Below are positions 1-46,432 of a stretch of DNA of 46,718 nt, piece by piece. Source of the DNA: Candidatus Doudnabacteria bacterium RIFCSPHIGHO2_01_FULL_46_24 (GTDB lineage: Bacteria > Patescibacteriota > Doudnabacteria > UBA920 > O2-02-FULL-48-8). The first letter of the stretch is position 1, and every line of letters starts with the position of its first letter. The stretch is from the NCBI GenBank assembly GCA_001777575.1, contig MFEL01000001.1:1-46718 (forward strand), written 5' to 3'. The position numbers were made by a program, and so were the translations under genes. The notes below the pieces were generated by a model. That model did not search any database. It had not been told where the DNA came from and was given only the letters and a program-made list of their open reading frames with translations.

Positions 1-52
1 CCGGGTCCCCCTTCTCCCCTTTACTCCCATTATCCCCCTTACTCCCCTTTAA
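1..52. repeat. 9-nt periodic C-tract/G-tract repeat, copy 1 of 3 (minus strand GGGGAGTAA-GGGGGATAA type)
   Basis: Plus strand reads ccccc ttct cccc tttact ccc attat ccccc ttact cccc. On the minus strand it encodes GSK-GDN-GSK-GEK-GDP of the ORF 1..844. Related strings occur at 27056..27086 and 30685..30722. Confidence 0.6.
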
Positions 53-844
53 CAAAGTCTTCAGGGACTCGGAATTGGCAATCAGGTCAGTCAGCTCGGC
101 TTCGGTAAGGGAAGCTTTGACTGTTACCTGGCGGAGAATGGTGGTGGAAGGCTGTATATCTTCGCCCATCCCCGAGGCATGGGTTGGGATTTGTAATCGG
201 GGATCTTGCTGAGGGTTTGGGTAAGATCCCGGATCGCCCGATGTGGCGTCCAGGATGGGAACCAGAGGGTTCTCAACCCTCTCCCCCGCGACCTGGGGCT
301 GGGGCTCTAGTTGCTCACTTGCATACGGGACAGTATGCAAGTATTGCTTGGCTTGCGCAAGAAAAGCGGAAAGGTTGGCAAACGACGGAACGTTATACGT
401 TATTCGTCGGCGCGGCGCGTATCGTAACTCGGCGGCGTCATGCGGTTTTTCAACGCCTGCCGCTAGACGCGCACCGATACGCGCAGCGCTGCCGTACAAC
501 GCGTTCACAGGCTCGGACACATCCAGCAGTTCGGAAGCGGCGGTTAGCCCAAAGGCCACCTTTGAGGTCAAGGGCTGCCATTCAGAAAAGGTGACCTTTG
601 GCAGAAGCTCGAAGGCGGCCTGCCGCAATTCGTCCGCCTGCGCCAAGGCTTCGGCGGATAAATAATTCGTGATTCGTAATTCGTTAATTCCATCGGAGAC
701 ATCCAGCGCCTCAAGTCCGGGGGCAAAATCCAAATGGCGCGAAGCGAAAGCCATGCTGCCGAACGACATAGCAAACACCACGGTCGCGGCCACCAGTTCC
801 GCTCCGCTCAGCCTAAGCCCTAAATTTTTATTTTTCGTTTTCAT
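1..844 (-). CDS. Secreted protein with N-terminal signal peptide and C-terminal collagen-like Gly-X-Y repeats (3' end runs off the left window edge)
   Basis: Hand translation of the minus strand from the ATG at 842-844 gives 281 codons with no stop down to position 1 (MKTKNKNLGLRLSGAELVAATVVFAMSFGSMAFASRHL...LKGSKGDNGSKGEKGDPG). It is absent from the supplied track because it is open-ended. ATGA start/stop overlap with ORF 841..1254. Hydrophobic core plus AFA-S cleavage-like site. An alternative shorter start (MGEDIQ, ATG at 167-169) cannot be excluded. Confidence 0.55.
   Translation of the reverse strand, partial: MKTKNKNLGLRLSGAELVAATVVFAMSFGSMAFASRHLDFAPGLEALDVSDGINELRITNYLSAEALAQADELRQAAFELLPKVTFSEWQPLTSKVAFGLTAASELLDVSEPVNALYGSAARIGARLAAGVEKPHDAAELRYAPRRRITYNVPSFANLSAFLAQAKQYLHTVPYASEQLEPQPQVAGERVENPLVPILDATSGDPGSYPNPQQDPRLQIPTHASGMGEDIQPSTTILRQVTVKASLTEAELTDLIANSESLKTLLKGSKGDNGSKGEKGDP
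165..259 (+). repeat. Nested-palindrome element, copy 1 (degenerate, lies inside ORF 1..844)
   Basis: cccatccccgaggcatgggttggg...aatcggggatctt...taagatcccggat...caggatggg. Same arm words as the copies at 3521, 26719 and 46335. Confidence 0.55.
399..500. repeat. ORF-less copy (A) of the inverted-repeat stem that flanks the four-helix-bundle gene
   Basis: Left arm gttattcgtcggcgcggcgcgtatcgt (399-425). Right arm accgatacgcgcagcgctgccgtacaac (473-500). The arms are mutually complementary over about 20 bp. About 47 nt of unrelated sequence lies between them. The copy lies inside ORF 1..844. Confidence 0.65.
633..658 (+). repeat. TCCGCC-loop-GGCGGA hairpin family, copy 1
   Basis: tccgcc tgcgccaaggcttc ggcgga. 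Same stem and near-identical loop as the copies at 9808, 43387 and (inverted) 2760. Confidence 0.6.
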
Positions 845-1254
845 TTTACCGGCCAAAAATTATTTATCTCAATGCTCGCTCCGGCCACTTGCCCGTTATA
901 AGTTGCGGCCGCAAAATCAGAAAAAGCCAAAAAATTTTCCCAGGTTGCCCAAAGCCCAAAGGTCACCTTTGGGTCTGGCACAGCCGCCACCTCGCCAAAC
1001 GCCACGTAAAACTCGTCCAAAAATTTTCCGCTGGTATCAAACATAAAGGCAATCGTCTCTACCGGCTCCTGCCAGTCATCATGCAAGTCGAGAATCCGGA
1101 AAGTATCAGCCGCTTGCATCTGTTCATCAGCCGGCAGCGACCCAAACGCCATGACGCCGATTAGAATCAGGCCAATCACGATTGCCGCGATCGTGGCGGA
1201 TTCAAAGTTGTTTAATTTCTGATAGTCAGTCTTCATAAATAATTCAAAAAGCAA
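841..1254 (-). CDS. Small membrane-anchored hypothetical protein
   Basis: ORF track entry, 137 aa. The codon at 1252-1254 is TTG, and the first ATG (MKTDYQKLNN) is at 1234-1236. One TM helix (ATIAAIVIGLILIGVMAF). Its stop overlaps the next start as ATGA. I recognise no family. Confidence 0.5.
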   Translation of the reverse strand: MLFELFMKTDYQKLNNFESATIAAIVIGLILIGVMAFGSLPADEQMQAADTFRILDLHDDWQEPVETIAFMFDTSGKFLDEFYVAFGEVAAVPDPKVTFGLWATWENFLAFSDFAAATYNGQVAGASIEINNFWPVK

Positions 1255-1257
1255 AAG

Positions 1258-1710
1258 TCAAGTGGTTATTCGTTGTTCGTCGGCGCCGCGCGTATCGTTT
1301 GACGGTGGCGAGGTGCGTCTCCTATTCGTAAACTTATCCCATGCCTCGGCTAGATTAAATAATTGCCTAGAAATTTTATCATAACTATCTACTAACTGGT
1401 CACACAATCCAGATTCGATATTATAGAGATCTTTGCATTGTTCCAAACCGACAATAGTTTCATTCGACTCAGTGTGCGCATCGTCTATGTATTTTTGAAA
1501 ACCGGCTTTCTGATGCTTCTTGGTATAACCTTCGGTTATCAATCTTGGGACTGCTTTGGTTGATCTAGACAGCTGATCAAAGAGATCGAACTTTTCGTGC
1601 TGGGGAAGTTTAGGTAGAATCTGCTTGTGGACTATAAGCATCGCTTTATAAGCATTTTGATAAACATCTAAATCTCTGAAGCTTCGGATTGGCTTTTTAG
1701 TTTCTGGCAT
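1258..1710 (-). CDS. Four-helix-bundle protein (23S rRNA intervening-sequence protein family; same fold family as DGR Avd)
   Basis: 150 aa. The N-terminal signature SFRDLDVYQNAYKAMLIVHK...LPKxEKFDLxDQLxRSxxAVPxLIxEG is typical of the PF05635/TIGR02436 family as I know it. The last 20 or so codons (RRRTSPPSNDTRGADEQRITT) are supplied by the left inverted-repeat arm. Confidence 0.75.
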   Translation of the reverse strand: MPETKKPIRSFRDLDVYQNAYKAMLIVHKQILPKLPQHEKFDLFDQLSRSTKAVPRLITEGYTKKHQKAGFQKYIDDAHTESNETIVGLEQCKDLYNIESGLCDQLVDSYDKISRQLFNLAEAWDKFTNRRRTSPPSNDTRGADEQRITT

Positions 1711-1781
1711 TTGGTTTAAAAGACCGCTTAACGATTAACGCTTACCGATACGCGCTGCGCTGCCGTTGAACGAGTTACTAT
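1265..1781 (-). mobile_element. IVS-like cassette: inverted-repeat stem enclosing the four-helix-bundle gene
   Basis: Left arm gttattcgttgttcgtcggcgccgcgcgtatcgt (1265-1298). Right arm taccgatacgcgctgcgctgccgttgaac (1753-1781). The same arm pair recurs at 399..500 and 10058..10152 without an ORF. Mobility is inference only. Confidence 0.4.
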
Positions 1782-1809
1782 TTTGCATTTTGACTTTTAA
1801 CTTATGACT

Positions 1810-2046
1810 TTACATTAAAAGATTCAAATACTTCGAAATCACGCTCACCCGCTGTTGGCTTTCGTTTTGCTGATATTTCAGATACTCAAAAAGATCGGCT
1901 TTGGTGATTAGCCAATCGCGGCCGATCTTGGTGGCGCGGATTTTCCCCTTGCGCGCGAGCAAGTTTAAGTAGTCCGCGCTGTACGGAGTCAATTCAGAAG
2001 CTTCCCTCAAGCTTAAAAGCTCAGGATTTAAGCCTAAATTTTGCAT
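1810..2046 (-). CDS. Helix-turn-helix DNA-binding protein (excisionase/MerR-like HTH_17 type)
   Basis: 78 aa. LSLREASELTPYSADYLNLLARKGKIRATKIGRDWLITKADLFEY matches the short HTH_17 pattern (...A..L.vs...l..l...G.i.a.k.gr.w.i...dl..y). Confidence 0.65.
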   Translation of the reverse strand: MQNLGLNPELLSLREASELTPYSADYLNLLARKGKIRATKIGRDWLITKADLFEYLKYQQNESQQRVSVISKYLNLLM

Positions 2047-2122: not shown

Positions 2123-2131
2123 ATTATAGCA
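2123..2131 (-). promoter_or_regulatory. Extended -10 promoter TGCTATAAT (HTH / four-helix-bundle operon)
   Basis: Plus strand attatagca equals minus TGCTATAAT, about 77 nt upstream of the ATG at 2046. This is one of six exact copies of the 9-mer in the window, all upstream of starts. Confidence 0.55.
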
Positions 2132-2153
2132 AATTTCTAGGATTATGTCAATG

Positions 2154-3520: not shown

Positions 3521-3608
3521 CCCATCCCCGAGGCGAGGGTTGGGTCGAAAAATCGGGGATCTAGTATAAGATCCCCGCCCAACTCGGGAAGTTCTCAGCG
3601 GGGATGGG
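3521..3608 (+). repeat. Nested-palindrome element, copy 2
   Basis: cccatccccgaggcgagggttgggtcgaaaaatcggggatct agtata agatccccgcccaactcgggaagttctcagcggggatggg. Outer stem CCCATCCCCG/CGGGGATGGG, middle GGGTTGGG/CCCAAC, inner ATCGGGGATCT/AGATCCCCG. It ends 6 nt from the mltG stop. Confidence 0.75.
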
Positions 3609-3614
3609 AAAACT

Positions 3615-4649
3615 TTACTGCAAGTATTTCGCCCTATTCGCATTATGCTCCTCAATCGTCCTGGCAAAATACGCCGCCCCATCCGGGGCATTGAGAAAAT
3701 ACAAATAATCGCTTTCAGAAGGCTCTAGCGCGGCTTTGATCGAGTCTAAGCCCGGGTTACTAATGGGCGTAGGCGGCAGGCCTTTGTTGACATAGGTGTT
3801 ATACGGCGACTTGATTTTGGTGTCCGCCAGCAGCGCCTGGCGGTCATTCTTGTCCGTGACGTAATTGACTGTGGCATCCGATTGCAAGGGCATGCCGATC
3901 TGCAGGCGGTTAGAAAACACGGACGCCACCAGCCTTCGTTCTTTTTGCATGGCTATTCGATCCTCATCTGTCAGCCACTCTTTGTTGCGTCCAACTTCTT
4001 TTTCGATAATCGAAGCCAGAATGACAGCCTCCCCGCTGACTGCAAACCCTTCGGTTTTTAGCTCAAAGTTGGCAAGCATTTTCTCAATCAAATCTTCAGA
4101 CGTGGCGTTTTTGCCGATGACGTAAGTGTCGGGGAACAAAAAACCCTGATAAGCGAATGGCTTGGCGATGTCCGTGTATCTGAACGCAAAATTCTTGCCG
4201 ACCAAAAACTCGGTCAATCCCTCTTCGCCTAACCGCTCCCCGATCTGCCTGTTGCTCCAGCCTTCGATGATTGTAATCTTGCGCTCATTGGGCACAACCT
4301 TGCCCTCAGTCAACACATCCACGATCTCGGCAACGCTCATTTTGCGGTTCAGCAGATATTCGCCGGCCTGGATTTTCTCGGATGCTCCTTTACTATAAAC
4401 GTAAAACCCAAAAATATACGGGCTGTTGATGAGTTTTTTACCAGCCAAACTGTCAGCCACTTTTTTTGCACTCTCCCCTTTTTCGACTTGAAAAGAAACT
4501 TCCGTGCCGTCAGCGCTTCCTGGCGAATTAACTTTAGTAAAAAAATAAAAAACCAGCGATACGCCAATCATCCCGGCCAAGGCCAAACTCCCCAAAAGAA
4601 TTTTAAGCTTCCCTTTTTCCGGATCTTGCACTTGGTATTCGTCGTTCAT
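3615..4649 (-). CDS. mltG: Endolytic murein transglycosylase MltG (YceG family)
   Basis: 344 aa. N-terminal TM helix, YceG-like body, conserved SPYNTY...GLPPTPISNPG motif. Confidence 0.88.
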   Translation of the reverse strand: MNDEYQVQDPEKGKLKILLGSLALAGMIGVSLVFYFFTKVNSPGSADGTEVSFQVEKGESAKKVADSLAGKKLINSPYIFGFYVYSKGASEKIQAGEYLLNRKMSVAEIVDVLTEGKVVPNERKITIIEGWSNRQIGERLGEEGLTEFLVGKNFAFRYTDIAKPFAYQGFLFPDTYVIGKNATSEDLIEKMLANFELKTEGFAVSGEAVILASIIEKEVGRNKEWLTDEDRIAMQKERRLVASVFSNRLQIGMPLQSDATVNYVTDKNDRQALLADTKIKSPYNTYVNKGLPPTPISNPGLDSIKAALEPSESDYLYFLNAPDGAAYFARTIEEHNANRAKYLQ

Positions 4650-9693: not shown

Positions 9694-9807
9694 TTGGTTT
9701 ACTTCTAAAATCAAAAGCGGGAGCAGGGCTCCCATATGTTAAGACGTAAGCAAAGACAAATCTGTTTCTTGAAACGTCTGACGTTTCTTGGCAGGGGTGG
9801 AAGGAGT

Positions 9808-9835
9808 CCCCGCCTGCGCTAAAGCTTCGGCGGAT
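9808..9835 (+). repeat. TCCGCC-loop-GGCGGA hairpin family, copy 3
   Basis: tccccgcc tgcgctaaagcttc ggcggat. Confidence 0.6.
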
Positions 9836-9910
9836 TCCGTCAAAAAGTATTTGAATTTGTGCTCAAGAACCCACGCTCGGTTTTGCCTGTCCGCCGAAGT
9901 GATCGTCTCA

Positions 9911-9984
9911 TGGCAGGGGCATAAGGATTTGAACCTTAACTAACGGTTTTGGAGACCGTTGTGCTACCGTTACACTATGCCCCC
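9911..9984 (-). tRNA. tRNA-Trp (CCA)
   Basis: Hand fold of the minus strand: gggggca ta gtgt aacggta gcac a acggt ctCCAaa accgt tagt taagg ttcaaat cctta tgcccct g cca. 74 nt, CCA encoded. Confidence 0.9.
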
Positions 9985-9997
9985 ATCACCAAACGAT

Positions 9998-10042
9998 CAC
10001 GAAGGCGGAGAGACCGATGTTCTACCATTGAACTACACCCCC
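9998..10042 (-). pseudogene. tRNA 5'-half fragment (acceptor 5' strand plus D arm, Gly-like), no foldable anticodon or T arm
   Basis: Minus strand gggggtg ta gttc aatggta gaac a tcggtctctccgcc... After the D arm I can pair no anticodon stem, T arm or acceptor 3' strand before tRNA-Trp begins 5-6 nt downstream. Confidence 0.4.
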
Positions 10043-10057
10043 ATTAAAACGGTTGGC

Positions 10058-10152
10058 GTTATTCGTCGGCGCTGCGCGTATCGTCTTGCGGCTTGCGTCT
10101 TTCGGCCGCTCGCCGTCAGACACTTACCGATACGCGTTGCGCTGCCGTAAAC
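10058..10152. repeat. ORF-less copy (B) of the inverted-repeat stem that flanks the four-helix-bundle gene
   Basis: Left arm gttattcgtcggcgctgcgcgtatcgt (10058-10084). Right arm taccgatacgcgttgcgctgccgtaaac (10125-10152). It lies between the rpmG stop and the tRNA fragment. Confidence 0.65.
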
Positions 10153-10161
10153 CGAATTACG

Positions 10162-10317
10162 CTATTTCGTTTCTTTGTGCTCTGTGTGTTTCTTACACCA
10201 GCGACAAAACTTGCTCATATTCAGCCGGCTGGTGTTGAGTTTCTTATTTTTTCTGGAATGATAGTTAGTGCGGTGGCACGCCGTGCATTCCATCGTGATC
10301 AGATTATCTTGGGACAT
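10162..10317 (-). CDS. rpmG: 50S ribosomal protein L33
   Basis: Not in the ORF track (51 aa). Hand translation gives MSQDNLITMECTACHRTNYHSRKNKKLNTSRLNMSKFCRWCKKHTEHKETK, with the L33 CxxC...CxxC zinc ribbon and HKETK terminus. Confidence 0.88.
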   Translation of the reverse strand: MSQDNLITMECTACHRTNYHSRKNKKLNTSRLNMSKFCRWCKKHTEHKETK

Positions 10318-17962: not shown

Positions 17963-19033
17963 ATGAAGCCGCAATTCCAACAATTAAAAAAGAACTATGA
18001 CCAGCTGCTGGAAAAACTTTCCGGCACTACTGATCCCAAAACTTTGGCCGAGCTTGGCAAAAAGCAAGCCGAGCTTTTGACGATGGTCGAAAAGGTTAAA
18101 AAGTTAGAAAAGTTAGAAAGTGAAATAACTGACCATGGAAAACTTATCGCAGAAGGTGGTGATTTAGCTGTAGTCGCCAAAGATGAACTGCCACGACTGC
18201 AAAAACAGGCCGAGGAACTTGAGCGGGAACTAAATAAGGCCATGCTGCCCAAAGATCCGTATGATAATCATAATATCGTCATGGAAATCCGAGCCGGCGC
18301 CGGCGGCGATGAATCAGGACTGTTCGCCGCCGAATTGTTCCGCATGTACGCCAAATATGCCGAAAGGTTAGGCTACAAAGTGGCTATTGCTTCATCGAAT
18401 CGCACGACAATTGGCGGCTTCAAGGAAATTATCTTCGAAGTCCTGGCGAAGCTCGCCGAAGCCTCGGCGAAGGCGGGGCCATACTCCAAGTTTAAGTATG
18501 AATCCGGCGTGCATCGGGTGCAAAGAGTGCCGGAAACGGAAAAGTCGGGTCGGGTGCATACTTCCACGGCCACAGTCGTGGTTTTGCCCGAAATCGAAGA
18601 ATCGGATTTCAAAATCGATCCCAAAGACATCAAAATTGAAGCTACAACTTCTTCGGGCCACGGCGGTCAGAGCGTCAACACGACTTATTCGGCAATTCGA
18701 GCTACGCACATTCCGACCGGGATTATCGTCTCTATCCAGGATGAGCGAAGCCAGTCCCAAAACAAAGAAAAAGCTTTGAACATTTTACGCGCTCGCGTGC
18801 TGGCGTTAGAAGAAGAGAAAAAATCCAAGGAACTACGCGATAAAAAACGCTCGCAAATTGGCACCGGCGACCGCAGCGAAAAAATCCGAACCTACAATTT
18901 CCCGCAGGATCGCATCACCGACCACCGCATCAATCAAAACTTCAGCCAAATCCAAAACATCATGGACGGTGCGCTTGAAAAAATAATTGCCGCACTGGCA
19001 GCCGAGGATCAGAAACGCTTGTTAGAAAAATGA
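17963..19033 (+). CDS. prfA: Peptide chain release factor 1
   Basis: 356 aa. RVQRVPETE (PxT-type tripeptide region) and [11 protein letters not shown] (GGQ). Confidence 0.93.
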
Positions 19034-26718: not shown

Positions 26719-26816
26719 CCCATCCCCGAGGCGAGGGTTAGGTCTAGTAATCGGGGATCTTATCTAGGCTTTAGCAAGATCCCCGCTTAACTAAGAAGAA
26801 TTCTCAGCGGGGATGG
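26719..26816 (+). repeat. Nested-palindrome element, copy 3
   Basis: cccatccccgaggcgagggttaggtctagtaatcggggatctt ... aagatccccgcttaactaagaagaattctcagcggggatgg. It starts 13 nt after the dnaE stop. Confidence 0.75.
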
Positions 26817-43386: not shown

Positions 43387-43412
43387 TCCGCCTACGCTAA
43401 AGCTATGGCGGA
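43387..43412 (+). repeat. TCCGCC-loop-GGCGGA hairpin family, copy 4
   Basis: tccgcc tacgctaaagctat ggcgga. Confidence 0.6.
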
Positions 43413-43470
43413 TCTGCCGAAGCGCAAAGCGCGAAGGCTGAAAATTAAGAAAAACCTCATATGCGGAACA

Positions 43471-46334: not shown

Positions 46335-46432
46335 CCCATCCCGGGCTTGACGTGTCCCAGACCTGATCTGGGATCCGGGATCTATATTAAGATCCCCGAT
46401 TTCATGCACTAACCCTCGCCTCGGGGATGGGG
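46335..46432 (-). repeat. Nested-palindrome element, copy 4 (inverted orientation)
   Basis: The reverse complement reads ccccatccccgaggcgagggttagtgcatgaaatcggggatctt aatat agatcccggatcccagatcaggtctgggacacgtcaagcccgggatggg. It starts 12 nt after the recG stop. Confidence 0.7.

What the first reader, a model, noticed from the sequence alone, without database searches (positions are those of the whole stretch)
1265..1781. Free-standing IVS-like cassette: a four-helix-bundle (IVS-protein/Avd-fold) gene enclosed by a ~25-bp inverted-repeat stem, plus two ORF-less copies of the same stem
Seen in sequence:
- The 150-aa ORF 1258..1710 is bracketed by the arms gttattcgttgttcgtcggcgccgcgcgtatcgt (1265-1298) and taccgatacgcgctgcgctgccgttgaac (1753-1781). 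These are complementary over about 20 bp.
- The same arm pair recurs at 399-425/473-500 and at 10058-10084/10125-10152. There it encloses only 40-47 nt of mutually unrelated sequence.
- The left arm encodes the last 20 or so residues of the ORF.

Established knowledge: this protein family was first described as ORFs inside 23S rRNA intervening sequences, which are bounded by long stems cut by RNase III. The DGR accessory protein Avd has the same fold.

Inference: no rRNA, reverse transcriptase or template/variable repeat pair is nearby. The cassette sits inside an mRNA operon (HTH, cassette, membrane protein, secreted protein). This looks like an autonomous copy and MITE-like empty copies of an IVS-type module. 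It would be either a mobile hairpin element or an RNase III processing cassette that excises its own mRNA from the polycistron.
Basis: partly seen in the sequence, partly recalled or inferred. Interest (0 to 1): 0.75.

Follow-up and report, generated by a model that had tools for sequence, protein, structure and literature searches.

The report
Hairpin-enclosed four-helix-bundle gene cassette
A small four-helix-bundle gene sits inside a long hairpin-forming inverted repeat, built like the 'intervening sequences' that interrupt ribosomal RNA genes, but here it lies in an ordinary operon with two gene-less hairpin copies nearby, and the same arrangement recurs in roughly ten bacterial phyla, which suggests an overlooked family of mobile elements.

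Summary
A PF05635/TIGR02436 four-helix-bundle gene (window 1258-1710, minus strand) is enclosed by imperfect inverted repeats. Two ORF-less hairpins (398-502 and 10056-10162) carry the same arms.

The pattern is general. 84 relatives of this protein, from roughly ten named phyla and none seen in rRNA, mostly carry a 5' arm just upstream of the ATG and a 3' arm over the last codons. The arms co-vary: 73% of cells are paired, against 62% when shuffled and 30-37% when slid. The arms are built of units of about 7 nt, each with a CpG. Several genomes also hold ORF-less hairpins that match their own cassette.

Close homologues (80-86% identical) lie in unrelated gene neighbourhoods, co-oriented with their neighbours and more AT-rich than the host. 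A genuine 23S rRNA IVS (Azospirillum) and 5 of 7 distant cyanobacterial plasmid genes have the same build.

Best reading: a mobile IVS-type cassette that is not restricted to rRNA. Its terminal repeats should pair in the transcript into a duplex that RNase III can cut. The ORF-less copies look like internal-deletion derivatives.

Not shown: RNase III cleavage, the transposition mechanism and the role of the protein. No target-site duplication or empty site was found. I found no description of this in the literature searched.

The parts
1262..1772 (-). Conserved cassette, about 511 nt: 5' arm, short leader, four-helix-bundle ORF, 3' arm.
   Evidence: Alignment with five homologous cassettes from other contexts. 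Homology starts at CGTTnAnCGGCAGCGC and ends at ...GACGAAnAACGnATnACC, and the flanks are unrelated.
1743..1790 (-). 5' arm in the sense of the gene. The core GGCAGCGCAGCGCGTATCGG is at 1745-1766. Weaker outer pairing extends to 1790.
   Evidence: Base-paired with 1253-1297 in the MFE and centroid folds.
1253..1298 (-). 3' arm. The core is CGATACGCGCGGCGCCGACGAA. It overlaps the last ORF codons and the stop codon at 1258-1260.
   Evidence: In close relatives, third codon positions in this stretch are as conserved as the other two (0.42/0.67/0.50). In the ORF core the values are 0.68/0.85/0.12.
1258..1710 (-). Four-helix-bundle protein gene, 150 aa. The folded core is residues 1-133. The tail, residues 134-150, is the translated 3' arm.
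   Evidence: PF05635 and TIGR02436 hits. AlphaFold2 pLDDT 86.6, four helices, tail at low confidence. Foldseek best matches are 2GSC and 2RLD, with DGR Avd 8UBE_D further down. Purifying selection on the core.
398..502 (-). ORF-less hairpin copy A, in the same orientation as the cassette. It lies inside a long open frame.
   Evidence: It aligns to the cassette's 5' part through ...AAGCGGTC and to its 3' part from AGGAGACGC onwards. The frame reads through it.
10056..10162 (-). ORF-less hairpin copy C, intergenic, between rpmG (L33) and a tRNA-like fragment followed by tRNA-Trp.
   Evidence: Fold energy -48.5 kcal/mol on the minus strand and -53.5 on the plus strand, z -2.75 and -3.87.
1810..2046 (-). 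HTH_17 / excisionase-family gene just upstream of the cassette. It is context, and possibly associated with the cassette.
   Evidence: PF12728 and TIGR01764 hits. An HTH_17 gene also flanks the cassette in L092 and in L219-L224.
2123..2151 (-). Consensus sigma-70 promoter (TTGACA-17-TATAAT, 12 of 12 matches) that would transcribe HTH, cassette and the downstream genes.
   Evidence: It follows the rplL terminator at 2179-2158.

Best explanation
This is a free-standing member of the same kind of element as the ORF-bearing intervening sequences (IVS) of rRNA genes. It is a mobile cassette of about 0.5 kb made of one promoterless four-helix-bundle (PF05635) gene between imperfect terminal inverted repeats of about 30-50 bp. 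The repeats are themselves built of units of about 7 nt, each containing a CpG.

The cassette inserts between co-oriented genes and is transcribed by read-through from the host promoter. In the transcript the two arms should pair into a long duplex closing a loop of about 400 nt that holds the ORF. As in rRNA IVSs, host RNase III can cut such a duplex. That would separate the cassette from the flanking RNA and so limit the harm of the insertion.

The two ORF-less hairpins are the same element with about 395 internal nucleotides missing (MITE-like derivatives). They keep the arms because the arms are the cis-acting part.

Shown here: the architecture, the covariation, homology to a true rRNA IVS, different insertion sites in relatives, a foreign base composition and purifying selection on the protein.

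Inferred: RNase III cleavage, the direction ORF-bearing to ORF-less, and that movement is by transposition. Who catalyses movement, the four-helix-bundle protein or a host enzyme, is unknown.
For: 1. Family and fold of the protein.
2. 319 relatives in species-representative genomes. The best 80 are 57-78% identical and their records are labelled Patescibacteria, WOR-3, Omnitrophota, Planctomycetota, Ignavibacteria, Bacteroidota, Desulfobacterota, Chloroflexota, Cloacimonadota, Spirochaetia and others. No rRNA was found in 20 short loci.
3. Arms at the same positions in most loci. 53 of 82 exceed the 99th percentile of shuffles, and a locus's own 3' arm is among the 8 best partners in 37 of 82 cases, against about 8 expected.
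4. Covariation, with the 5' and 3' arms aligned independently of each other. 73.4% of cells are paired, against 62.4 +/- 0.8 when shuffled (0 of 500 shuffles reach it) and 30-37% when slid. Cells with a change on both sides number 217 against 115 +/- 8. The covariation score is 0.332 against 0.162.
5. Homologues 80-86% identical lie in unrelated neighbourhoods: SdrD/sortase, GH1/EamA, T4SS pilins, YggT/holA. Homology stops at the arm ends.
6. Neighbours are on the same strand in 69 of 79 cases upstream and 73 of 79 downstream, with short spacers.
7. The cassette ORF is more AT-rich than the host flanks in 64 of 70 loci, by 6 points on average. In the window it is 39.7% GC against 49.5%.
8. Third codon positions are free in the ORF core (invariant fraction 0.12) but not in the arm (0.50).
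9. ORF-less hairpins matching the resident cassette's arms occur in L022, L023, L026, L029, L030, L035, L039, L050, L053 and L059. Those whose surroundings were checked (8 of these loci; L030 and L050 were not) lie outside the long ORFs, mostly between co-oriented genes. ORF-less copies with the window-type arms occur in six other low-GC contigs.
10. The window's ORF-less copies align with both inner flanks of the cassette.
11. A genuine rRNA IVS has the same build. In Azospirillum lipoferum plasmid AZO_p2, a 34%-identical ORF sits inside the 23S gene between stems of about 25-30 bp made of 7-nt units. The Coxiella IVS has a 28-bp stem with one mismatch and a bulge, heptamer repeats, and is cut in mid-stem by RNase III (PMC4990558).
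12. 5 of 7 distant free-standing four-helix-bundle genes on cyanobacterial plasmids are also enclosed by inverted repeats of 21-51 nt made of 7-8-nt units.
Against: - No target-site duplication is visible at the six aligned junctions.
- No empty site was found. At least 23 contigs of this species from different samples were read, and the cassette sequence was identical or differed by one base in all seven compared.
- The flanking TM protein and the collagen-like protein are orphans, so no orthologous locus without the cassette could be examined.
- No transposase or recombinase lies within the element.
- G.U and A.C oppositions are equally frequent on the sense strand (83 against 87). There is therefore no signature that selection acts specifically on sense-RNA pairing. 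The constraint could be on DNA, or on recognition of both ends by one protein.
- An RNase III cut in mid-stem would remove the stop codon, so processing and translation of the full ORF would compete.
- ORF-less copies occur in both orientations relative to local genes.
The genome-wide copy number in the source organism is therefore unknown.
Confidence: 0.6

Rival explanations
1. A protein-plus-binding-site system acting on DNA, analogous to REPIN/RAYT. The four-helix-bundle protein would recognise the hairpin arms sequence-specifically (as single-stranded or cruciform DNA, or as duplex). It would be the trans-acting factor that spreads or maintains both its own cassette and the ORF-less hairpins. 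RNA pairing and RNase III cutting would be incidental.
For: - Within the Patescibacteria-type group the arm core is invariant across 9 ORF-less copies (selected by a pattern covering the 5'-arm core). The ORF-less inner loops, and synonymous sites in close-relative cassettes, vary freely. That fits sequence-specific recognition better than mere pairing.
- There is a conserved 2x2 internal loop and recurrent A.A mismatches at fixed stem positions.
- The roughly 7-nt unit periodicity of the arms resembles an array of binding sites.
- There is no G.U over A.C bias.
- ORF-less copies occur in either orientation.
- The protein is under strong purifying selection, and homologues form pentameric rings (2GSC; PMC4990558).
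Against: - No nucleic-acid cleavage or strand-transfer activity is known for PF05635, and no catalytic motif was identified here.
- Cassettes are strongly co-oriented with host transcription.
- Mismatches are purine-biased on the sense strand (245 purine.purine against 116 pyrimidine.pyrimidine), which suggests a strand-specific role.
- The arm match between ORF-less copies and the resident cassette is also expected from simple descent.
Confidence: 0.2
2. A host-serving RNA module rather than a selfish element. The hairpins would be operon-internal processing or stability signals, like REP or RNase III sites. The four-helix-bundle protein would be an RNA-binding regulator that controls its own mRNA and the other hairpin-bearing transcripts, such as the rpmG-tRNA junction.
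For: - Hairpins sit between co-transcribed genes. Copy C lies between rpmG and tRNA genes.
- In the same window tRNA-Trp is bracketed by another extension stem.
- The protein is conserved under purifying selection.
- The cassette DNA was essentially invariant in every contig of this species that was compared.
Against: - The distribution is patchy across phyla at 57-78% identity.
- Closest relatives sit in unrelated insertion contexts.
- The composition is AT-rich relative to hosts.
- Tandem arrays of ORF-less hairpins flank some cassettes (L026, L059).
- The cassette's operon partners here are orphan proteins.
All of these fit an accessory mobile element better than a housekeeping regulator.
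Confidence: 0.12
3. A remnant of a diversity-generating retroelement. The gene would be an orphaned Avd accessory gene and the repeats decayed TR/VR or IMH-type elements.
For: The fold is shared with DGR Avd, although the match is weak (8UBE_D: TM 0.62, E 0.62, ranked 24th). PF05635 is the commonest Pfam family near DGR reverse transcriptases (PMC10053308).
Against: - There is no reverse-transcriptase gene and no direct repeat pair of about 100 nt within 3.5 kb on one side or 1.2 kb on the other.
- None is present in the annotated contexts of four close homologues.
- The repeats are inverted and enclose the gene, which is not the DGR layout.
- The closest structural matches are the non-DGR proteins 2GSC and 2RLD.
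Confidence: 0.03
4. Ordinary terminators, or chance inverted repeats around an unremarkable gene.
For: The stems are GC-rich. Overall folding energy of the 551-nt region is not exceptional (z -0.46).
Against: - The arm patterns are far above chance.
- There is no T-tract after the stems, and the terminator scan does not call them.
- The same long-range pairing with covariation recurs in 57 or more independent loci.
Confidence: 0.02

Closest known systems
ORF-bearing intervening sequences (IVS) of 23S rRNA genes (Leptospira, Coxiella burnetii, Brucella; here also Azospirillum lipoferum plasmid AZO_p2)
   Same: - The size is about 0.4-0.5 kb.
- Complementary termini form a stem of about 25-30 bp with a few mismatches.
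- Short tandem units of about 7 nt make up the arms or the leader.
- There is a single PF05635 ORF in the loop that runs up to or into the 3' arm.
- The distribution is sporadic and attributed to horizontal transfer (PMC4990558; PMC11270868; direct comparison).
   Different: - It is not in an rRNA gene but in a protein-coding operon.
- It is accompanied by ORF-less copies.
- The protein is under strong purifying selection here, whereas the Coxiella ORF is reported as decaying and probably untranslated.
- The protein is only 34% identical to the Azospirillum IVS protein.
- RNase III excision is shown for rRNA IVSs and is not tested here.
REPIN / RAYT systems (REP doublets and their REP-associated tyrosine transposase); from my own knowledge
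   Same: - A single protein gene is flanked by inverted copies of a short repeat.
- Gene-less hairpin doublets of the same repeat are dispersed in intergenic sites of the same genome.
- The repeat sequence is specific to the resident protein gene.
   Different: The protein is a four-helix bundle, not an HUH/Y1 transposase. The arms are not themselves REP palindromes with a GTAG/CGTC tag. Copy numbers seen here are small.
MITEs and Rickettsia palindromic elements; from my own knowledge
   Same: Short non-autonomous palindromic derivatives that share termini with a longer ORF-bearing element. One copy lies within an open reading frame.
   Different: No transposase-encoding parent and no target-site duplication were found. 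In-frame insertion of copy A could not be verified because the host ORF is an orphan.
Avd, the accessory protein of diversity-generating retroelements
   Same: Same protein superfamily and fold (PMC10053308).
   Different: No reverse transcriptase and no TR/VR repeats. The gene is enclosed by an inverted repeat.
Integron gene cassettes with attC sites; from my own knowledge
   Same: Promoterless, tightly packed, co-oriented small ORFs. They are associated with imperfect inverted repeats whose structure, including conserved unpaired bases, is better conserved than their sequence.
   Different: Here the two arms enclose the ORF rather than forming one attC downstream of it. The ends read 5'-GTTAT...ATAAC-3', not RYYYAAC...GTTRRRY. 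No integrase or array is present.

Membership tests
PF05635 / TIGR02436 four-helix-bundle proteins (23S rRNA IVS protein family) | The profile HMM match is above the curated cut-off. | tested here: met
   PF05635 scores 63.4 bits against a cut-off of 33.8. TIGR02436 scores 52 bits against a cut-off of 24.
PF05635 / TIGR02436 four-helix-bundle proteins (23S rRNA IVS protein family) | An up-down four-helix bundle like 2GSC and 2RLD. | tested here: met
   The AlphaFold2 model has pLDDT 86.6 and four helices. Foldseek gives TM 0.87-0.90 to 2GSC and 0.79-0.83 to 2RLD. The pentameric assembly was not tested.
rRNA intervening sequence (IVS) | It lies inside a 23S or 16S rRNA gene, at the tip of a helix. 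| tested here: not met
   There is no rRNA in the window and none in 20 related short loci. The neighbours are protein-coding genes.
rRNA intervening sequence (IVS) | It is bounded by complementary termini that form a long stem. | tested here: met
   Compare the true IVS in L213.
rRNA intervening sequence (IVS) | It is excised from the transcript by RNase III without religation. | not testable with these tools
   This needs transcript-end mapping or an in vitro cleavage assay.
MITE / non-autonomous transposon derivative (the ORF-less copies) | It shares terminal inverted repeats and subterminal sequence with a longer parent element. | tested here: met
MITE / non-autonomous transposon derivative (the ORF-less copies) | Target-site duplications flank the copies. 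| tested here: not met
   No duplication was seen at the junctions of six cassettes or of the ORF-less copies. The element ends are fuzzy, so short duplications cannot be strictly excluded.
MITE / non-autonomous transposon derivative (the ORF-less copies) | The parent element encodes a transposase. | tested here: not met
   The only ORF is the four-helix-bundle protein. It has no hit in PADLOC or PHROGs and no transposase family hit.
MITE / non-autonomous transposon derivative (the ORF-less copies) | Presence/absence polymorphism between related genomes. | tested here: inconclusive
   Cassettes of close relatives lie at different loci. No empty site was found, and the sampled contigs of this species were essentially identical across the cassette.
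REPIN/RAYT | The flanked gene encodes an HUH (Y1) REP-associated transposase. | tested here: not met
   The protein is PF05635.
Diversity-generating retroelement | A reverse transcriptase and a TR/VR repeat pair lie next to avd. | tested here: not met
   The ORFs and Pfam content around the cassette and around four close homologues show none. No suitable direct repeats were found. The window ends 1.26 kb beyond the cassette on one side.
Any Rfam RNA family | A covariance-model match to the hairpins. | tested here: not met
   There is no hit at gathering score or at E up to 1 on 350-1850 and 9700-10200.

The most novel reading that the evidence does not exclude
PF05635 four-helix-bundle proteins may be the dedicated partner of a class of hairpin mobile elements found across many bacterial phyla. 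The protein, possibly as a pentameric ring reading the array of roughly 7-nt units, would recognise the arms of its own cassette and of the ORF-less copies, and would promote their spread or retention. This would be a third protein/hairpin partnership beside RAYT/REPIN and IS200-IS605/PATE, built on a non-HUH protein. The rRNA intervening sequences would be the subset of these cassettes that landed in rRNA helix tips, and DGR Avd a recruited relative.
Probability: 0.25. Interest if true: 0.9.

Novelty: new variant of a known kind. Interest (0 to 1): 0.72.

Why it matters
The origin, mobility and function of rRNA intervening sequences, and of the protein they encode, have been open questions since the early 1990s. 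PMC4990558 still calls them unclear and cites the old proposal that the ORF is needed for mobility.

This analysis suggests that the rRNA location is a special case. The same stem-plus-ORF cassette is common in ordinary operons of many phyla. It moves between loci and comes with gene-less hairpin derivatives.

That turns a curiosity of a few pathogens into a widespread element family with clear, testable parts: arms made of roughly 7-nt units, a conserved internal loop, and a protein under selection. It also gives a functional lead for thousands of genes annotated only as 'four helix bundle protein', including relatives of DGR Avd.

For annotation, it explains why gene callers extend these ORFs into the arms, and why upstream genes or 'genes' run through such hairpins.

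Tried and rejected
- **Metagenome arm scan.** 108 of 121 matches were chance hits in contigs of 50-74% GC. Only seven real ORF-less hairpins were recovered, and none from the source genome. The genome-wide copy number and the source organism's rRNA genes therefore could not be examined.
- **In-frame insertion of copy A.** The host ORF has no homologue apart from a truncated copy of itself. It has no paralogue among the other collagen-like ORFs of the window. The region is also open in three frames, so the coding status of the stretch around copy A is uncertain.
- **Empty-site search.** I searched through the flanking HTH and TM proteins. The cassette DNA was identical, or differed by one base, in every contig compared; apparent differences were gene-calling differences only. 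The TM protein has no orthologue.
- **Phage or plasmid vehicle.** No relative was found in viral contigs. Only distant homologues were found on plasmids.
- **Strand of the structure from G.U against A.C counts.** There was no bias. This neither supports nor excludes an RNA role.
- **Link between the D3 repeat family and the end of the ORF** (I9). It rests on a 12-nt seed, which is expected by chance in a window of this size, so I dropped it.
- **tRNA with a giant intron next to copy C.** ARAGORN with introns allowed finds only tRNA-Trp.
- **The 1993-1995 papers.** The Leptospira and Coxiella IVS papers are not held in the library. I cannot exclude that extra-ribosomal copies were noted there.
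- **A covariance model from the nine same-type ORF-less hairpins.** Their arms are invariant, so I did not build one.
Full report
**1. The observation**

On the minus strand a 150-codon ORF (1710 to 1258) is preceded by GGCAGCGCAGCGCGTATCGG and ends in CGATACGCGCGGCGCCGACGAA. The same two arms recur at 398-502 and 10056-10162.
- The arm patterns are far above chance: 5 matches against 0.05 expected, and 3 against 0.00.
- The cassette stem is the longest local inverted repeat in the window (45 nt, 71% complementary). The ORF-less pairs come next (27 nt, 81% and 74%).
- The terminal stem forms in both the MFE and the centroid fold of the whole cassette.
- The ORF-less copies fold into long hairpins.
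- One coordinate is off: the right-arm string lies at 1743-1771, not 1753-1781.

**2. The gene and its setting**

The ORF is a PF05635/TIGR02436 protein.
- AlphaFold2 gives four confident helices (pLDDT 86.6). The tail, residues 134-150, which is the part encoded by the 3' arm, is at low confidence.
- The best structural matches are the pentameric XCC0516 (2GSC) and BT_0352 (2RLD). DGR Avd ranks far lower and is only a weak match.
- Rfam finds only tRNAs in the window, and nothing on the hairpins even at E up to 1.
- All nearby genes are on the minus strand. After the rplL terminator (2179-2158) comes a perfect consensus promoter (2151-2123). It is followed by an HTH_17/excisionase-family gene, the cassette, an orphan membrane protein and a long collagen-like ORF.
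- Copy A lies inside that last open frame. Copy C lies between rpmG and tRNA genes.

**3. The arrangement is general**

The protein has more than 1,200 relatives in the 90%-clustered database, with the top 120 at 65-99% identity. At 50% clustering this collapses to 38 representatives at E <= 1e-30, within 3,710 for the wider family.

In species-representative genomes 319 relatives were found. The best 80 are 57-78% identical. Their records are labelled Patescibacteria, WOR-3, Omnitrophota, Planctomycetota, Ignavibacteria, Bacteroidota, Desulfobacterota, Chloroflexota, Cloacimonadota, Spirochaetia and others. Twenty short contigs among them contain no rRNA.

In most loci a 5' arm ends 5-50 nt before the start codon. 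A complementary 3' arm begins around residue 136-143 and overlaps the stop codon. The C-terminal peptide NRRRxxPxxDTRxAxE is conserved because it is the arm.

**4. The stem is under selection**

Three tests agree.
- **Partner test.** Each 5' region was scored against every 3' region. A locus's own partner is the best in 14 of 82 cases and among the best eight in 37 of 82, against about 8 expected. 53 of 82 exceed the 99th percentile of shuffles.
- **Independent alignment.** The 5' and 3' regions were aligned separately, without reference to pairing. Of 38 positions, 66% are paired, against 32-38% when shifted and 58.4 +/- 0.7% when partners are permuted.
- **Pair counts.** On 57 gap-free arm pairs, 73.4% of cells are paired against 62.4 +/- 0.8. 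Double-sided changes number 217 against 115 +/- 8. The covariation score is 0.332 against 0.162. In each case 0 of 500 shuffles reach the observed value, and the slid controls give 30-37% paired. Several pairs show three Watson-Crick types, for example UA 22 / GC 15 / AU 10.

One column is mismatched in most sequences, giving a conserved internal loop. An A.A opposition in the CGTATCG/CGAAACG core is frequent.

The arms are periodic. CpG-to-CpG spacing peaks sharply at 7, then 6 and 5, with a harmonic at 12-13. Controls are flat.

**5. Protein against nucleotide constraint**

Among six close relatives, the fraction of invariant sites by codon position is 0.68/0.85/0.12 in the ORF core. This shows clear purifying selection on a protein. 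In the arm-encoded tail the values are 0.42/0.67/0.50. The non-coding 5' arm is 0.67 invariant. So the protein is functional, and the arms are constrained as nucleic acid.

**6. Evidence for mobility**

- Homologues 80-86% identical sit between SdrD-like and sortase genes, between GH1 and EamA, before T4SS pilin genes, and between yggT and holA.
- When aligned, homology begins at CGTTnAnCGGCAGCGC and ends at GACGAAnAACGnATnACC. Beyond those points the flanks are unrelated. This defines an element of about 511 nt (window 1262-1772).
- Cassettes are co-oriented with the upstream neighbour in 69 of 79 cases and with the downstream neighbour in 73 of 79, with short spacers.
- The cassette ORF is more AT-rich than its host in 64 of 70 loci.
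- Some genomes carry two cassettes (L016, L063, and L024 with L048).

Against this, I saw no target-site duplication. No empty site was found: the cassette DNA was identical, or differed by one base, in every contig of this species that was compared. The orphan neighbours prevent comparison with other species. No phage copy was found, and plasmids hold only distant homologues.

**7. ORF-less copies**

The window's two copies align with the cassette beyond the core arms. On the 5' side the match runs through ...GGTAAGCGTTAATCGTTAAGCGGTC. On the 3' side it starts at AGGAGACGC, the RRR codons. They are the cassette minus about 395 nt, or conversely the cassette is a hairpin with an ORF in its loop.

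ORF-less hairpins matching the resident cassette's arms (at most 3 mismatches in 16 nt, correctly spaced) occur within 10 kb of the cassette in L022, L023 (two), L026 (tandem), L029 (two), L030, L035, L039, L050, L053 and L059 (tandem). The surroundings were checked for eight of these loci (not L030 or L050). There the copies lie outside the long ORFs, mostly between co-oriented genes, and in either orientation.

The arm scan of metagenomes mostly returned chance hits. It also gave seven minimal hairpins (12-nt loop) with the same arms in six low-GC contigs. Across these nine ORF-less copies the arm core is invariant, while the two-nucleotide internal loop, the hairpin loop and the flanks vary. 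This set was selected by a pattern covering the 5'-arm core, so the invariance of that arm is partly built in.

**8. Relation to rRNA IVSs and to the wider family**

A tblastn hit with no annotated gene, on Azospirillum lipoferum plasmid AZO_p2, proved to lie inside a 23S rRNA gene. The LSU rRNA spans 2804-6002 of L213, and the 34%-identical ORF spans 4001-4369. It is closed by a stem of about 25-30 bp made of the units GAGGACG/GATGACA.

The Coxiella IVS is described as 428-444 nt with a 28-bp stem (one mismatch, one bulge). It has heptamer repeats before the ORF, an ORF extending further than first annotated, and RNase III cuts in mid-stem (PMC4990558). PF05635 ORFs also occur in rRNA insertions of CPR bacteria (PMC11270868).

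Of seven distant (27-34% identical) free-standing genes on cyanobacterial plasmids, five are enclosed by inverted repeats of 21-51 nt made of purine-rich 7-8-nt units. The stem-plus-ORF build therefore belongs to the family as a whole, inside or outside rRNA.

**9. Mechanism**

What is shown is a conserved, co-varying long-range inverted repeat around a selected gene, plus comparative evidence of movement.

By homology with rRNA IVSs, the transcribed arms should form a duplex of 30 bp or more, and RNase III would be expected to cut it. This is an inference. G.U and A.C oppositions are equally common on the sense strand (83 against 87), so there is no specific signature of sense-RNA selection. 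Purine.purine mismatches do outnumber pyrimidine.pyrimidine ones two to one on that strand.

Near-invariance of the arm core within a clade, compared with free synonymous sites, suggests sequence-specific recognition by a protein. The obvious candidate is the encoded four-helix bundle, but nothing here tests that.

The cassette has no promoter of its own in the window. In L219 it sits in the leader of a polysaccharide operon, behind a strong promoter.

**10. Novelty and verdict**

Full-text searches for the family names found the Coxiella, CPR-rRNA and DGR papers. They found no description of stem-enclosed free-standing cassettes or of ORF-less derivatives. PMC4990558 states that the origin and function of IVSs remain unclear. 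The 1993-95 papers could not be read.

I classify this as a new variant of a known kind: an IVS-type element outside rRNA, with non-autonomous copies, across phyla. Its two mechanistic alternatives are compatible with each other, and only the mobile-element side has comparative evidence so far.

Noticed in passing
window 165-218, 3521-3574, 26719-26772 (+) and 46377-46431 (-): A second repeat family of about 60-70 nt, CCCATCCCCGAGGCGAGGGTTrGG...AATCGGGGATCT...AGATCCC. It has two overlapping small hairpins (ATCCCCGA/TCGGGGAT and GGGATCT/AGATCCC). There are four copies at 70-89% identity and no Rfam match.
   Followed up: partly
window 634-659, 9810-9835, 43388-43413 (+); 2760-2786, 18454-18476 (-): A third small hairpin family, TCCGCC-N14-GGCGGA. 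Three of the five copies lie just outside rplL or tRNA genes, one is in the open frame that also holds copy A, and the fifth (18454-18476) is a degenerate copy inside ORF 17963-19033.
   Followed up: no
window 9887-9923 / 9976-10012: tRNA-Trp is bracketed by an extension stem of about 16 bp beyond its acceptor stem (CCGCCTTCGTGATCG ... CGATCACTTCGGCGG). This is a second example in the window of a gene enclosed by a long-range stem, reminiscent of rRNA/tRNA processing stems.
   Followed up: partly
window 10010-10041 (-): A tRNA-like 5' half (GGGGGTGTAGTTCAATGGTAGAACATCGGTCT) lies immediately downstream of ORF-less copy C, and a matching CACCCCTGCCA lies near 9786-9796. Neither ARAGORN (with or without introns allowed) nor Rfam calls a tRNA there. 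It could be a disrupted or degenerate tRNA gene.
   Followed up: partly
window 1810-2046 (-); L092 2022-2237; L219-L224 (e.g. L219 1884-2129): An HTH_17/excisionase-family small gene lies next to the cassette in three different genomic contexts, upstream in two and 15 nt downstream in one. A two-sequence HMM of these genes found no other copy in 1.15 Mb of related loci. This could be an association or a shared target preference.
   Followed up: partly
window 1-844 (-), continued in L002 and L232: A long orphan ORF (706 aa in L232) has a signal-like N-terminus and collagen-like GxxGxx repeats. It contains members of three different repeat families (the TCCGCC hairpin, IVS-type copy A and the CCCATCCCC element), all read through in frame. 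The stretch 184-665 is also open in two plus-strand frames, so its coding status is uncertain.
   Followed up: partly
L225, L226, L228, L229, L231 (cyanobacterial plasmids): Distant four-helix-bundle genes are enclosed by inverted repeats of 21-51 nt made of purine-rich 7-8-nt tandem units (GCAGAGGA, GCAGGGG, GGAGATA). The 5' arm is purine-rich in the sense of the gene. Two further genes (L227, L230) lack such arms.
   Followed up: partly
L026 4040-4934 and L059 9776-10609: Tandem arrays of ORF-less hairpins (period about 124 nt in L026 and about 110 nt in L059) flank the cassette on both sides in an Ignavibacteriales genome and a Bacteroidota genome.
   Followed up: no
window 1020-1089 (compared with L003): One strain variant has a 60-nt in-frame deletion in the orphan membrane-protein gene downstream of the cassette (131 aa reduced to 111 aa).
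   Followed up: no
L219 1290-1345: A triple direct repeat CTCTTGACAC provides three overlapping -35 boxes ahead of a TAAAAT -10 box, immediately upstream of a cassette that sits in the leader of a polysaccharide-synthesis operon. Gene callers extend that cassette's ORF upstream through the 5' arm (166 aa instead of about 146).
   Followed up: no
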